Positions 10,046 through 21,786 are shown, counted from the stretch's first letter. The stretch: DNA of 64,000 bases from Minutocellus sp. GHC0000111 (GCA_977018835.1 OZ361256.1:1798001-1862000); one strand, 5' to 3'. Notes: generated by a model not told the origin, from the sequence alone. Numbers and translations: made by a program.

Positions 10046-11053
10046 TCAATCCTGTTGATAAAACGAACCGGCAAACAAGCACTGCTCTGCCTTTTGGGCC
10101 TCTCGGCCAATGTATGCAGCATGGCCAACGCTGACCAACTCTTTGGCATGCTCCCATCTCTCGAAGATGAGCACAGTCAGTTCCTTGGCAGTACGGGCCT
10201 CGAATGTTTCCATAGGCTCGGGACGATTGTTTCCATGGCAGGTCAGCTTGTTGCCATGAACATCACATACCTCTCCTTTATCGTTGACGATGCAGGAATG
10301 ATACGTGGCTCGAATAACACCCTTCTCGTGGTCAAGCTTCATCATAAAATAACCCTTGGAATCCATCGTCAAGTTTCGAGACGAGAGGAACTTATCCAGC
10401 ACTTGTCTCTCCTTTAGTTCATCGGGGTTTGGTCCCTTGAGTGGATTGCGTTTCTCGGCAGCAAAGTCTTTGATGATGGTGGGTTGCCCAGCCACCATGT
10501 GAACGACCATGTTCGCCTTGTCGGCTACGTGCTGATTGAACCAACCTTGACAATCGACAAACTTACGAGAGGCGTTAGATTCACCATGCAGACCCGATCC
10601 AATCTCATTGCTGACAAAAATAAACGTAGCATTCCTCTGGGTAATCATCGTATCAAACTCTGCCTTGACTTTTTCCAGCGCTCGCTCTGATGCCTCCGTT
10701 GTATCGCCGCCAGTACCGTCGTTGTTGGTAGCATCCTTGTCCTTTTCGGGCTCATTGAATACCCCTTCTTGCATCATGTAGTTGGTCAGCCAAAGAGTCA
10801 AGCAATCCACGAGAATGGCTCGTCCAGCAAACTGTTCTTTGTGGACGCTGGGCGTGAGTGGCTCTTCGATGGTAGTCCATTTTTCTCCTCGATCATCCTT
10901 ATGTTTCTGAACACGGTCGGCAAAATCATCATCCCAAACTTTTGATGTGGCCAAGTAGATTGGATCGGGACAGATGGACTCGGCCAAATTTTGAGCATAA
11001 GACGACTTGCCGGAGCGAGCGCCTCCCGTTACGAGATAAACAGTTGCGGGCAT
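10046..11053 (-). CDS. cobU: Bifunctional adenosylcobinamide kinase / cobinamide-phosphate guanylyltransferase (CobU/CobP) fused to a C-terminal DUF4346-like domain; intronless
   Basis: LVTGGARSGKS P-loop, IYLAT, RVQKH..R...W.TIEEP, LVDCLTLWLTN, VSNEIGSG, F.D.QG.FNQ. C-terminal D.KGYF...RTAKEL...HAAYIGRE..KAE......YQQD. Confidence 0.93.
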   Translation of the reverse strand: MPATVYLVTGGARSGKSSYAQNLAESICPDPIYLATSKVWDDDFADRVQKHKDDRGEKWTTIEEPLTPSVHKEQFAGRAILVDCLTLWLTNYMMQEGVFNEPEKDKDATNNDGTGGDTTEASERALEKVKAEFDTMITQRNATFIFVSNEIGSGLHGESNASRKFVDCQGWFNQHVADKANMVVHMVAGQPTIIKDFAAEKRNPLKGPNPDELKERQVLDKFLSSRNLTMDSKGYFMMKLDHEKGVIRATYHSCIVNDKGEVCDVHGNKLTCHGNNRPEPMETFEARTAKELTVLIFERWEHAKELVSVGHAAYIGREAQKAEQCLFAGSFYQQD

Positions 11054-11148
11054 GGTCAGCTGCGCGGATACAGTATCGATCGAATGGCTTGAAGTGCTTT
11101 GGATGGAGTGCTTCGCGCAAAACGGTATCATGGTATCTTTCGCAGGTC

Positions 11149-11162
11149 AAAGCACGTGCTTC
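11149..11162. promoter_or_regulatory. Palindromic 14-mer AAAGCACGTGCTTC in the cobU/CBA1 bidirectional promoter (candidate B12-responsive element)
   Basis: Perfect 12-bp palindrome AAGCACGTGCTT; related copies lie upstream of SHMT and cobS. Confidence 0.55.
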
Positions 11163-11256
11163 GCGCGTTCGCGATTGGCGGCAATGACTGGCGGGAAAGA
11201 TCTTGCCACGCCTCTCGCAGCCACTCAATAGGAATTCATTCCTAAGTCAAGTCAGA

Positions 11257-18117: not shown

Positions 18118-18294
18118 AGATTTGACGCGGACACATGACAGACCAAGATATTGGCGCTGGCCGGCTGGCCGCAGATTTTTGGATTCATTCATTCAACGAA
18201 GTCAAGGCAAGATCTTGATCCAGCAATCCAATTGTAACGAAACATAAGAACAGATTCTGCACTCTTCCTTCTCTGCTCTTCACGCAACAAAATT

Positions 18295-18826
18295 ATGACG
18301 TCGTCGACGACCGAGAACGGGTCATCAGGCGGCAACGCAAACTAACAACAACAACAATGTGTGTAATGGTGAGAGAGAGTCGCACCACCGTCCTCTCTCT
18401 CCTGGAGTCATCGAGGAACGCAATCAGAATGTCACCTCCCAGAAGGATCAGATCTCGGAAGAAATCAAGTCCTTCCTGTCGGGCGATGCTGCCCTCAGTA
18501 TCCGTTCGGAATTTCGCACCTTTTTCACCATTATTTGGATGCTGTGTTCATCACTCGTCTGCCCCCAGTCCAGCCAGGTGGAGTGGATCTGCATCCCGGC
18601 TTCTTGATGCGTGGCATGGCCTACTTTCCCATGGTGGGCACCGTGCTGGGCATCTTCTACGCGATTGCGTTGGATTTCTGCCACACATCGCTGTGGGCCT
18701 GCCAGGAGAGAGTGTGTCATCATCGCGCGCTTGCTTTTCTGCCGCGTGGCTGTTACCTTCGGTCGGTCTCTTCCTAACCGGTTGCTTTCATGAGGACGGA
18801 CTGGCTGACAGTGCCGATGGTATCGG
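18295..18826 (+). pseudogene. cobS: 5' part of cobalamin synthase CobS (start of the cobS-cobT fusion), frameshifted at least 3 times in this assembly and cut by a transposon
   Basis: Motifs are split over three frames: EFRTFFT / FITRLP...RGMAYFPMVG.VLG / LFLTGCFHEDGLADSADGIG. The last continues as GGWSK...IMTDSRVGTFG after the insertion. Confidence 0.8.
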
Positions 18827-19897
18827 CAAACGCCTGAAAACAATAATTTCAATTAAAATTAATTGCAATTAATTGCAATTGTTCAATTAATTGTGGCTTA
18901 GTTGGGAGCACCAGTCATTGATTGAGGTTGGTCCGAGTCACCTTCCCGTGGATTGCGTCACGATGACCTAGCGGAAACATTGATTTCCCCTCATTCCACT
19001 TTTTCTCCCTCGGTCGAAGCACGTGCGTATCGATTTGATTTCATGCACGCACTCGCTGACTTGGCTTCGGCGAATGTGAGGTGGTGGCCCGGGCTGGCAA
19101 TTCCTTGATACTCTCATCGCCCGAGTCCATCGACTAAAATCCAAGAGAACGAGCATCTTCTTTGGCTGTGCCCTCGGCACCAGCAAGATTCAGGCAAACA
19201 ACGGCCTCACGTCCGACCCTCACTTCGAGACCGGGGTTTCCAAGATCCAGCAGGGTGTTTCGTATGAGACTACCATGACTGAAGAGGAGAAGGATGCCTG
19301 CCGCAGCCTCCTGCTTTCGCCTGAAGACTCTGATGATGACGATGACTTTGATGAAGAAGATTTCCTGGCCACCGTTGAGCATGAGAAGAAGCGGAAGGCC
19401 AAGGAGGTCGCAAATGTATCAGACTACATTGATTGCGGCTTTATTCTTGGCAGCACTGCTGCAACTTGCGAGTCTCTGTGGAGCAAGGCTGATGAGATCC
19501 TCAGGAAGCGTCGCCAGGGAATGTCCCCCAGAACTCTTGAGATGATTCTCTTTCTCAAGGAGAACCATGACTTGTGGGACATCAAAGATGTCGTCGAGGC
19601 CAATCGTCGCCGCAAGGCTGCAAACAAAGAGTCTCGGGCTGCTAAAAGGATTGCAGAAGAGGAGGATAACGAGGCGCTTGCAACTGCCCTTGGATTGATT
19701 GCTACTGCACCTCCGGCCGAGGACAATCAGAACAATAATTGAACAATTAATTGCAATTGTTCTGGCAATTAATTGTAGCCAAGAATAAAACTATAACGAG
19801 TAATTGTGTTTAGATGCGCTATCTATGTATTTCAATTGATTATCTACACATTCAAAATCTCATCAAAAAAATAAAAATTATATTTTTCCAGGGTTTG
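18827..19897 (+). mobile_element. Non-autonomous (internally deleted) hAT-type DNA transposon, 1071 bp, inserted in cobS
   Basis: 8-bp TSD GGTATCGG (18819-18826 and 19898-19905). Imperfect TIRs CAAACGCCTGAAAACAATAATTT / CAAACCCTGGAAAAATATAATTT. Subterminal CAATTAATTG repeats at both ends. Internal ORF 19275-19742 resembles the hAT dimerisation domain (STAATCESLWS.A..IL..RR..MSP.TLEMILFLKEN..LW). Confidence 0.9.
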
Positions 19898-21786
19898 GGT
19901 ATCGGTGGTGGATGGAGCAAGTCACAGGTCCTCAAAATTATGACGGATTCAAGGGTCGGAACATTCGGGTGTGCCGCCTTGACCATGTTCCTCTTGATCA
20001 AGGTCCAACTGCTCGGATCCATGGCTTCGAGCCGTCCTGCAAATGCCATTATTGTTTCCCAAACCTTGTCTCGTCTGTCGGCGCCGTATCTCATCCGCAC
20101 CAAGGACTACGTGGCTGAGGTTGGACCCAAGTCACCGTTTTACATATTCATGGTCCAGGCTAAGCATTTGGTGTCGTGGCCGCGAGTTATTGTGGCTGTG
20201 CTGCACAGTTTTGCGGTGACGTCCTTCCTTTATGACCCACATACTGCTGCAATGCTCGTAGTGGCAGTATTGCTCCTCAGCCATTTCATCGGTTGGAAGG
20301 GGGATTACCTCCTCGGCGGAGTCATGGGCGATTTTCTAGGTGGAACCATTTGCATATGCGAGATATTGACCCTGGTGCTCATTCTGTCGAAGGATGCCCT
20401 TGCTGAGCTTTATCAATCGTTCCTCAAAGATATAGCAGATGCCGAAGGACCAGAGGGATTTGCCGTCCAAATCCAACTCGTTTCGCTTTGGAATGACACT
20501 CGCGTCCGTCCAACGCTAGTCTTTTTGGCACTGATGATTTCAATCAAGGTCTGGTGCAAGGTCGTCGGAAGAAAGGATATGTATGATCGCGAAGATGCCT
20601 CTGGGTCCTCTTCCGAAGCCAAAACATCTGCATCTGATGAGCAGTCTAATGGTGGTGATCCATCTCCACGCCAGGTTGCATCGGATATCATTACATCTTC
20701 TGACGCAACGTTTGCAGAGAGATACGAGGCAGCCCAGGGTTATCTTGATGCACTGGCCAAACCGGTTGGCTCTTTGGGTACGCTCGAGTCTTGGGCGGCG
20801 AAATTATCTGCTCTTCAGAGAACGACGAAACCTTCCGCAGATAAAACTGCGTGTCTTATTTTTGCGGGAGATCATGGAGTAGCCAAGGCTCCAGAGGAAG
20901 GTGGCGAAGGCTGTTCCTTATTTCCACAAGCTGTCACAAGAGCTGTTTTACTGGGCCTCGAGAGAGAGGTTGCCGGGGCGTCCGTTCTTGCCAAGGCCAA
21001 TGGTGTCGAATTGAAGGAAATTGACGCCGGTGTTGCTGGAGCGCCGATGGATGGAAAGGTGATTTATTCCTGTCCGGATAAGCTGCCCGACGGAACACGT
21101 AATTTTTGCAAGGAACCTGCCATGACTGCCGAGGAATGTGCTCGATGCATCAAAATTGGTAGGTCGAACCTAGCAGAGGCTGTTGAGAAACATTCAGTGA
21201 ATGTCGTGGCACTGGGCGAGGTAGGTATTGGCAATACTACATCGTCATCGGCACTGATCGCGGCTCTGACGGGCCAATCGGTCGAATCTGTATGCGGTGG
21301 CGGTGCCTTTGCAGCCAGAACCATCAACGAGGATGCAGTGACCAAAAAGGTTGATATTGTTACGAGAGCTCTCAAAAGATACTCGCGAGTTAGCATGCCC
21401 GCCGCCGTGGCTCTTGCTAATCTCGGTGGTGCCGAGATTGCAGCTAGCTTGTCGGTGCCATGCTGGAAGCCGCCGACCGAAACGTAGCTGTCCTCGTCGA
21501 TGGTTTCATTGCCACCGCTGCTGCTCTCGTGGCGGTAAGTATGTCGCCCAACGTTTGTCACGTGCTCTTTTTAACGAGCAATTCGGCGGAAAGGGGACAG
21601 AGAGCGGCCATTGATCAGATCCAAGCTATAGCCACCGAGAATGACGTGCCTGTGCCGGCGTCTCCTGTTCTGTCCATGAATTTGCGCATGGGTGAGGGCA
21701 CGGCCGCATTGCTGTCCGTCCCCATCCTTCAAAGTGCTGCGGCAGTTATGCAGGATATGGCAACCATTCAAGCTATTCTCGGGTAG
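19898..21786 (+). CDS. cobS-cobT: 3' part of the CobS-CobT fusion: rest of CobS plus nicotinate-nucleotide-dimethylbenzimidazole phosphoribosyltransferase CobT; one frameshift near 21445
   Basis: CobS: IMTDSRVGTFG, LGGVMGDFLG...I.E. CobT: LAKPVGSLGTLE, FAGDHGVA, GTRNF...PAMT, LGEVGIGNTTSS, GGAEIAA / LVGAML....VLVDGFI, L.MNLRMGEGTAA, MAT. Confidence 0.9.

What the first reader, a model, noticed from the sequence alone, without database searches (positions are those of the whole stretch)
10046..21786. Eukaryotic operon-like vitamin B12 uptake and cobamide-remodelling gene cluster
Seen: five consecutive genes with no unrelated gene between them: cobU(+DUF4346) <- -> CBA1 -> SHMT -> <- cbiZ-cbiB <- -> cobS-cobT. 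The cob/cbi genes are intronless and bacterial-like, set among ordinary diatom genes. Established: in bacteria CbiZ strips cobinamide or a 'wrong' cobamide (e.g. pseudocobalamin) to cobyric acid, CbiB rebuilds cobinamide-phosphate, CobU guanylylates it, CobT makes alpha-ribazole-5'-P from DMB and NaMN, and CobS joins the two. CBA1 is the algal B12-uptake protein, and SHMT feeds the folate cycle used by methionine synthase. Inference: this is a clustered, co-regulated module letting a diatom import incomplete or cyanobacterial corrinoids and convert them to cobalamin, built from horizontally acquired genes plus native genes. Individual cob genes are known in some algae; the tight cluster is what looks new and needs a literature check.
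Basis: partly seen in the sequence, partly recalled or inferred. Interest (0 to 1): 0.95.

Follow-up and report, generated by a model that had tools for sequence, protein, structure and literature searches.

The report
Diatom vitamin B12 salvage gene cluster
Five neighbouring genes in a diatom genome, a predicted B12-uptake protein, three bacteria-like B12-finishing enzyme genes and a folate enzyme, form a cluster that likely lets the alga rebuild unusable B12 look-alikes into real B12, although one of the enzyme genes is broken by a transposon in this copy.

Summary
The cluster is real: cobU+DUF4346 (−), a CBA1-like gene (+), cytosolic SHMT (+), cbiZ-cbiB (−) and cobS-cobT (+) lie side by side among ordinary diatom genes.

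(1) It is not an operon. It is two head-to-head pairs, each with a ~320-nt shared promoter holding a match to a published B12-regulated-promoter motif, with SHMT between them.
(2) cobS-cobT is broken here by a 1,071-bp hAT element (8-bp target duplication) and frameshifts. Five of eight runs laid, one of them RNA, show the insertion-free form, and a relative has an intact 777-aa ORF.
(3) The enzymes and the CbiZ-CbiB fusion are already published for diatoms.

Not found in nine literature searches: the clustering. It recurs in parts elsewhere. cobU is adjacent to cobS-cobT in Seminavis and one gene away in Nitzschia, and three unnamed contigs show pairs by a contig-length proxy. The genes are unlinked in three Thalassiosirales. 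The motif lies upstream of cbiZ-cbiB in 6 of 12 eukaryote-type loci.

Best reading: a B12-repressed corrinoid salvage and remodelling module. Co-regulation and chemistry are inferred, not shown. Verdict: new variant of a known kind, interest 0.62.

The parts
10046..11053 (-). cobU (cobinamide kinase/guanylyltransferase) fused to C-terminal PterinBD-DUF4346; 335 aa, no intron, intact
   Evidence: Pfam; NCBIfam NF004469 158.2 bits vs cut-off 161; PDB CobU hits to E 1e-25; 2 deviations at 108 conserved columns
11149..11162 (.). Palindromic G-box motif, 13/14 match to the published B12-regulated-promoter consensus GAAGCACGTGCTTC, in the ~320-nt divergent promoter of cobU and CBA1
   Evidence: best match among the 12 CACGTG sites of the 64-kb window
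11376..12839 (+). CBA1-like cobalamin acquisition protein, 487 aa, hydrophobic N- and C-terminal ends, class III solute-binding fold
   Evidence: 708 relatives at E<=1e-3; model pLDDT 94.9; Foldseek best hits CeuE/HutB-type binding proteins E 5e-10; LFNLE, VLW, WQE, YD match residues listed
13376..15240 (+). Cytosolic-type SHMT: exon 1 13376-13396, intron 13397-13848, exon 2 13849-15240; no targeting peptide; GC3 0.90; no CACGTG upstream
   Evidence: Pfam; sequence
15578..17599 (-). cbiZ-cbiB fusion (cobinamide amidohydrolase + cobinamide-phosphate synthase), 673 aa, no intron, intact
   Evidence: Pfam; TIGR00380 181.8 bits vs cut-off 165.9; alignment; 2 deviations at 174 conserved columns
17711..18078 (.). 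368-bp high-copy repeat inserted in the cbiZ-cbiB / cobS-cobT promoter, between the motif and the cbiZ-cbiB start
   Evidence: bin depth 1036 vs ~102 and joint 17710->18079 in 3 of 4 runs
18104..18117 (.). Weaker copy of the motif (core AGCACGTGC; 4 mismatches to the consensus) in the cbiZ-cbiB / cobS-cobT divergent promoter
   Evidence: the same promoter in L002 has a 2-mismatch copy
18295..21786 (+). cobS-cobT fusion gene, broken in this copy (small indels 18343-18762, hAT insertion, +2 at 21445-21446); 777 aa and intron-free where intact
   Evidence: intact ORF L002:1183-3513; insertion-free form in 5 of 8 runs
18827..19897 (+). Non-autonomous hAT-type element, 1,071 bp: 28-nt imperfect terminal inverted repeats, 8-bp target duplication GGTATCGG (18819-18826 and 19898-19905), ORF 19080-19742 with a weak hAT dimerisation hit
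   Evidence: (E 0.005, below cut-off); 1,079-nt skips

Best explanation
This is a diatom gene cluster that likely works as a B12-scarcity-induced module for taking up incomplete or 'wrong' corrinoids and rebuilding them into cobalamin, with its cobS-cobT gene knocked out on this haplotype. Predicted steps: (1) the CBA1-like protein binds cobalamin, pseudocobalamin or cobinamide at the membrane. (2) CbiZ cuts the side chain to give cobyric acid and hands it to the fused membrane enzyme CbiB, which makes cobinamide-phosphate. (3) CobU guanylylates this; its kinase activity also allows direct cobinamide salvage. (4) CobT makes alpha-ribazole-phosphate from DMB and hands it to the fused membrane enzyme CobS, which joins the halves. 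(5) CobC, adenosylation and the aminoalcohol-phosphate come from genes elsewhere. Each fusion ties a membrane enzyme to the soluble enzyme that makes its substrate. Control is inferred to run through two bidirectional promoters, each with a G-box motif. SHMT is inferred to be a co-recruited B12-stress gene. Shown: gene identities, order, lesions, motif, partial clustering in other diatoms. Inferred: all chemistry (from bacterial enzymes, recalled), co-regulation, selection for clustering.
For: Domain identities. Intact cobS-cobT head-to-head with cbiZ-cbiB in relative L002, dN/dS 0.04-0.12 against the window. Seminavis cobU Sro439_g143270 is adjacent to cobS-cobT Sro439_g143280; Nitzschia inconspicua cobS-cobT KAG7356359/KAG7356715 lies two accession numbers from cobU KAG7356361/KAG7356717. 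Identical longest-contig lengths pair the genes 5 times (these two plus 22,553, 14,630 and 23,839 nt) against 0.28 expected. The 23,839 case is in another branch of the CbiB tree. Motif within 450 nt upstream of cbiZ-cbiB in 6 of 12 eukaryote-type loci at <=2 mismatches, against 1 hit in the other 98 kb of those loci and 0 in 349 kb of bacterial-type loci. METE, SHMT1 and CBA1 are the three genes up without B12 in P. tricornutum RNA-seq. CBA1 also takes up pseudocobalamin, and COBT is needed for remodelling in Chlamydomonas. A metatranscriptome has depth over all five genes, none in two non-coding bins, and a 2,017-nt cobS-cobT contig without the hAT.
Against: No expression or chemistry was measured. 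The published motif boosted expression but did not confer B12 control, and the SHMT1 qPCR change was not significant. No motif lies upstream of this SHMT, and the second promoter's copy has 4 mismatches. cobU and cbiZ-cbiB are far apart in Thalassiosira profunda, Skeletonema menzelii and Thalassiosira sp. AJA248-18 (locus tags), and cbiZ-cbiB is on another scaffold in Seminavis. Of 17 eukaryote-type cbiZ-cbiB loci fetched (L001-L015, L018, L044), only L002 had another cluster gene; many are short, but 8 had 6-19 kb. P. tricornutum remodels without CbiZ, so CbiZ is not required. No insertion-free joint was listed for the three DNA runs closest to the window, so an intact allele in this very strain is inferred from depth, not shown.
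Confidence: 0.68

Rival explanations
1. The linkage is a relic of one old transfer of a bacterial cob operon, now decaying; adjacency has no regulatory meaning and CBA1 and SHMT are chance neighbours.
For: Clustering is patchy and absent in Thalassiosirales. Two mobile insertions and many indels lie in this copy. 69 of 137 bacterial-type cbiB loci also carry cobT.
Against: Orientations are head-to-head, not operon-like. The partner differs between lineages (cobU-cobST, cbiZB-cobST, cbiZB-cobU), which fits reshuffling into clusters. CBA1 is eukaryotic and sits beside cbiZ in a second, pennate-like record by the length proxy (7,929 nt; weak). The motif is conserved upstream.
Confidence: 0.15
2. 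The module salvages only cobinamide, cobyric acid or degraded cobalamin and free DMB or alpha-ribazole; it does not remodel cyanobacterial pseudocobalamin.
For: CbiZ substrate range cannot be read from sequence (best bacterial identity 27-33%). CobU alone suffices for cobinamide salvage (established knowledge). A diatom makes alpha-ribazole under low B12.
Against: CbiZ-CbiB is the remodelling route in Rhodobacter, and CBA1 imports pseudocobalamin.
Confidence: 0.12
3. In this strain the pathway is dead: cobS-cobT is lost and the remaining genes serve uptake only.
For: hAT plus several frameshifts at this locus; a V->E change at a 54/55 conserved CobT column.
Against: Depth over cobS-cobT is 1.3-2 times the ~102 single-locus level. 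About two thirds of depth at 21446 lacks the frameshifting bases in X1, X4 and X5 (116/181, 165/248, 18/27). So further, better-preserved copies exist.
Confidence: 0.04
4. Bacterial contamination or a chimeric join.
For: Intron-free, bacteria-like genes.
Against: Bridging contigs in other runs; eukaryote-type clade with support 100; best bacterial identities 27-44% and neither fusion in 137 bacterial-type loci; a eukaryotic transposon inside the gene.
Confidence: 0.01

Closest known systems
Diatom horizontally acquired cobalamin final-synthesis genes (Vancaester et al., bioRxiv 10.1101/2020.01.24.918219; passages; Pleurosigma genome PMC12803021, passages)
   Same: CobU and CbiB of bacterial origin in diatoms; CbiB fused to CbiZ; proposed scavenging role.
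   Different: The passages read do not report genomic clustering, linkage to CBA1 or SHMT, a shared promoter motif, or the CobS-CobT and CobU-DUF4346 fusions. That paper reports no clear clustering of transferred genes in general. Its supplements were not seen.
Algal COBT/COBS/COBC remodelling (Helliwell 2016 PMC4850488, passages; Harrison 2026 bioRxiv 10.64898/2026.08.07.738727, introduction, passages and Discussion)
   Same: CobT and CobS swap in DMB; CBA1 imports pseudocobalamin.
   Different: No CbiZ/CbiB route in those algae; the word 'fusion' does not occur in either main text; no gene cluster is described.
Bacterial CbiZ-CbiB cobamide remodelling and cobU-cobS-cobT nucleotide-loop operons (Rhodobacter, Dehalococcoides, Salmonella; recalled and as cited)
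   Same: Same enzyme set and predicted chemistry.
   Different: Monocistronic divergent pairs, two fusions not seen in 137 bacterial-type loci, CBA1 instead of BtuBFCD, and a G-box motif; no riboswitch search was run.
Eukaryotic metabolic gene clusters (Nannochloropsis nitrate and hydrogenase clusters, PMC3566019 passages; yeast BIO and DAL clusters, recalled)
   Same: Non-homologous genes of one pathway, with an uptake gene, side by side and often head-to-head.
   Different: The substrate is a corrinoid. I found no report of such a cluster for B12 in a eukaryote. Divergent pairs are common in photosynthetic stramenopiles, so orientation alone says little.

Membership tests
Bacterial-type operon | Co-oriented genes on one polycistronic transcript | tested here: not met
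   Orientation − + + − +; SHMT has an intron; no listed RNA contig spans two genes
Eukaryotic metabolic gene cluster | Three or more non-homologous genes of one pathway adjacent in the genome | tested here: met
   bridged by independent contigs except CBA1-SHMT
Eukaryotic metabolic gene cluster | Co-regulation | tested here: inconclusive
   Shared motif in both divergent promoters and upstream of cbiZ-cbiB in 6 of 12 loci; no expression series; motif not sufficient for B12 control in P. tricornutum
Eukaryotic metabolic gene cluster | Linkage kept across species | tested here: inconclusive
   Whole order in close relatives by overlapping pieces and partly in L002; sub-clusters in Seminavis and Nitzschia; unlinked in three Thalassiosirales
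Cobamide remodelling system (CbiZ/CbiB/CobU/CobS/CobT) | All five enzyme domains present above Pfam cut-offs | tested here: met
   the NCBIfam equivalog cut-off is met only for CbiB and missed for CobU, CobS and CobT
Cobamide remodelling system (CbiZ/CbiB/CobU/CobS/CobT) | All genes intact at this locus | tested here: not met
   cobS-cobT interrupted; intact in L002 and in many 775-800-aa relatives
Cobamide remodelling system (CbiZ/CbiB/CobU/CobS/CobT) | Conversion of cobinamide or pseudocobalamin to cobalamin | not testable with these tools
   needs culture and LC-MS
CBA1 | BtuF-like solute-binding fold, signal peptide, C-terminal membrane helix, conserved FFNxE / PxVxW / WFE / D residues | tested here: met
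   window has LFNLE, TVLW, WQE, YD; terminal hydrophobic stretches read by eye
CBA1 | Direct orthology to PtCBA1 or CrCBA1 and B12 binding | not tested
   No named CBA1 sequence was in session; the ten clusters looked up carry no CBA1 name; top fold hits are siderophore and haem binders, not BtuF
hAT transposon | 8-bp target-site duplication and short terminal inverted repeats | tested here: met
hAT transposon | Full-length transposase (autonomous element) | tested here: not met
   Only a 220-aa C-terminal piece, Pfam hit below cut-off

The most novel reading that the evidence does not exclude
Diatoms have repeatedly assembled old bacterial cob genes, the eukaryotic B12 receptor CBA1 and a one-carbon enzyme into clusters run by bidirectional 'B12-box' promoters. 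This would be a eukaryotic corrinoid-remodelling regulon with two substrate-channelling membrane fusions. It would make many diatoms net converters of cyanobacterial pseudocobalamin into true B12 in the sea, with transposon-made null alleles segregating in the wild.
Probability: 0.35. Interest if true: 0.82.

Novelty: new variant of a known kind. Interest (0 to 1): 0.62.

Why it matters
B12 limits phytoplankton in large ocean regions, and which algae can turn cyanobacterial pseudocobalamin or cobinamide into usable B12 is an open question. The cluster puts uptake and the whole strip-and-rebuild route in 12 kb behind two short promoters. That makes the route directly testable in a diatom and offers natural intact and null alleles for comparison. 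It gives a handle on the unknown B12-sensing transcription factor through a motif conserved upstream of cbiZ-cbiB. It also suggests that genes next to cob genes or carrying the motif (DUF4346, a nitroreductase in L012, the unnamed gene between cobS-cobT and cobU in Nitzschia) are candidate missing parts of algal B12 handling.

Tried and rejected
No whole genome is held for this window, so METE, METH, cobC, bluB and further cobS-cobT copies could not be sought. The gene between cobS-cobT and cobU in Nitzschia stayed unidentified.

The protein atlas did not answer. A single-sequence fold of CBA1 failed (pLDDT 34); the alignment fold worked. The CBA1 profile against PDB sequences gave only E 0.08 hits. 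Viral contigs hold no relative of CobS-CobT or CobU.

The L012 nitroreductase was considered as BluB. It had no NCBIfam and no PDB hit, so it is not filed as BluB. Earlier scan findings: none. 'DUF4346' gave 0 papers. Bertrand 2012 is not held. The Stentor preprint concerns an endosymbiont.

The tree is the quick version, built from 31 eukaryote-type and the 40 best bacterial CbiB domains. Whether the small indels at 18343-18762 are real or consensus errors is open: the rows shown list several of them as absent in the runs' contigs, but contigs drop minor alleles. My exon join for SHMT was off by one base; the coordinates given were re-read.

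
Full report
Observation. Six-frame ORFs and Pfam confirm the order cobU+DUF4346 (10046-11053 −), CBA1-like (11376-12839 +), SHMT (13376-15240 +), cbiZ-cbiB (15578-17599 −), cobS-cobT (18295-21786 +). 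The flanks are a protein kinase, ThiF/rhodanese, exportin and other eukaryotic genes. GC is flat near 50% and cob GC3 is 0.50-0.54, like the neighbours; SHMT has GC3 0.90 and an intron. Named relatives of the proteins are diatoms. The CBA1-like protein has no family hit, but 708 relatives, a confident model, the class III solute-binding fold and matches to the residues listed as conserved in CBA1 (passages). It was not aligned to a named CBA1.

The cobS-cobT copy is broken. A 1,071-bp element (18827-19897) with imperfect terminal inverted repeats and an 8-bp target duplication interrupts CobS. About ten small indels lie upstream of it and a +2 insertion lies in CobT, relative to metagenome contig L002, which holds an intact intron-free 777-aa CobS-CobT ORF head-to-head with cbiZ-cbiB and followed by the same downstream gene. 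Of eight runs laid, five (X6 RNA, X13-X16) have contigs that skip exactly 1,079 nt here; X1, X4 and X5 list no such joint. In those three, about two thirds of depth at 21446 lacks the two extra bases, and depth over the gene is above the single-locus level. So more than one version exists, and the +2 allele appears real. A 368-bp high-copy repeat in the cbiZ-cbiB/cobS-cobT promoter is skipped by contigs in 3 of 4 runs. cobU and cbiZ-cbiB are intact, with 2 deviations each at 108 and 174 conserved columns. dN/dS against L002 is 0.04-0.12, so the damage is recent.

Not a chimera. One X1 contig of 4,122 nt runs from SHMT through cbiZ-cbiB into the cobS start with one difference. Contigs in more distant runs bridge kinase-cobU, cobU-CBA1, SHMT-cbiZ-cbiB, cbiZ-cbiB-cobS and cobT-next gene; no single listed contig bridged CBA1 to SHMT. 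The CbiB domain groups with 30 eukaryote-type fusions, apart from 40 bacterial domains, with support 100 in a quick tree. Best bacterial identities are 27-44%, and neither fusion occurs in 137 bacterial-type loci.

Conservation is partial and varied. Seminavis robusta cobU and cobS-cobT are consecutive genes, with cbiZ-cbiB elsewhere; Nitzschia inconspicua has them two accession numbers apart in both copies. Among homologues on contigs of 5 kb or more (34 CbiZ-CbiB, 38 CobU, 62 CobS-CobT; the window's own contig left out), five identical lengths pair two families against 0.28 expected. Two of the five are the named cases, which validates the proxy; three are unnamed. A CBA1 relative and a pennate-like CbiZ share a 7,929-nt length, a weaker hint. 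Against: the genes are far apart in T. profunda, S. menzelii and Thalassiosira sp. AJA248-18 (locus tags), and 16 of 17 eukaryote-type cbiZ-cbiB loci show no other cluster gene, many being short.

Regulation. The layout is two divergent pairs with about 320 and 327 nt (repeat removed) between start codons. A paper on P. tricornutum (PMC12538271, passages) names METE, SHMT1 and CBA1 as the three genes raised without B12 and gives a promoter consensus GAAGCACGTGCTTC. It found the motif needed for expression but not sufficient for B12 control, and the SHMT1 qPCR change was not significant. The best match in the 64-kb window (1 mismatch) lies between cobU and CBA1; a 4-mismatch copy lies between cbiZ-cbiB and cobS-cobT; a third lies inside the hAT. 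The loose 2-mismatch pattern is not enriched in the window overall (13 vs 9.8 expected); the exact core is (4 vs 0.54; core chosen after seeing the consensus). Upstream of cbiZ-cbiB the motif occurs in 6 of 12 eukaryote-type loci at <=2 mismatches (8 of 12 at <=4), against 1 hit in the remaining 98 kb. Two of the six are close relatives, so about five lineages. No motif precedes SHMT. A metatranscriptome (X6) has depth over all five genes and none in two non-coding bins; this suggests expression, not its level or control.

Mechanism. As in Best explanation: uptake by CBA1, stripping by CbiZ, rebuilding by CbiB and CobU, ligand activation by CobT, joining by CobS. Chemistry is inferred from bacterial enzymes (recalled; cited). 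CobC, adenosylation, aminopropanol-phosphate and DMB supply are not in the window. The role of DUF4346 is unknown; the CobU-DUF4346 fusion is shared by the 120 best homologues listed.

What is known. Bacterial-origin CobU and CbiZ-CbiB in diatoms are published (bioRxiv 2020.01.24.918219, passages; PMC12803021, passages). COBT/COBS remodelling and CBA1 uptake of pseudocobalamin are published (PMC4850488, passages; bioRxiv 2026.08.07.738727, introduction, passages and Discussion; bioRxiv 2023.03.24.534157, passages). Alpha-ribazole production by a diatom is published (bioRxiv 2024.12.03.626653, first half). Nine searches showed no report of the clustering, of the motif upstream of cob genes, or of the CobS-CobT fusion. 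The library lacks most subscription papers, and I read no supplements; gene tables of the diatom transfer study could already imply the linkage.

Verdict. A real feature and a new variant of a known kind: a known pathway in a eukaryotic cluster with probable bidirectional control, recurring in parts across diatoms, with a transposon-disrupted allele in this haplotype. Interest 0.62; best explanation 0.68; boldest reading probability 0.35, interest 0.82.

Noticed in passing
L012:4584-5492: A nitroreductase-family gene lies directly upstream of cbiZ-cbiB in a pennate-type locus with two copies of the motif (1 and 3 mismatches) at its start; not matched to BluB by NCBIfam or PDB. A candidate B12 gene.
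   Followed up: partly
window 19907-21783 vs L002: cobS-cobT is much closer to L002 (dS about 0.6; CobT part 86-96% nucleotide identity) than cbiZ-cbiB (dS 1.4) or the downstream gene (dS 1.8) are; possible introgression or gene conversion of the cobT part.
   Followed up: partly
window 18069-22578: Depth in X1, X4 and X5 is about 1.3-2 times the single-locus level over cobS-cobT and the next gene, with versions about 5% apart: a probable segmental duplication.
   Followed up: no
window 19016-19029: The hAT element itself carries a 2-mismatch copy of the motif, and an RNA contig matches its ORF region 19072-19727 without differences; the element could spread the motif.
   Followed up: no
window 18343-18762: Dense small insertions, several looking like short duplications of adjacent letters, just upstream of the hAT; either repeated excision footprints or consensus errors.
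   Followed up: partly
window 10046-10400: C-terminal PterinBD-DUF4346 domain on CobU, with weak similarity to dihydropteroate-synthase-like and MtrA proteins; conserved across diatom CobU; no paper names it.
   Followed up: partly
window 11252-11340: A direct repeat of about 53-59 nt spacing in the CBA1 5' region varies in copy number between runs (joints).
   Followed up: no
window 21857-22966: Gene of no Pfam family with a predicted targeting peptide, convergent with cobT and kept in the same place in L002.
   Followed up: no
window 23749-24492: ORF that looks by eye like a nicotinate-nucleotide adenylyltransferase (NadD-like) 2 kb beyond cobT, whose co-substrate is NaMN; no Pfam hit on the exon tested, label from recall.
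   Followed up: no
window 30823-32469, 55353-56948, 26368-27186: ChaN/Tiki haem-binding uptake protein, AAA_28 protein and a 2H phosphodiesterase-like protein.
   Followed up: no
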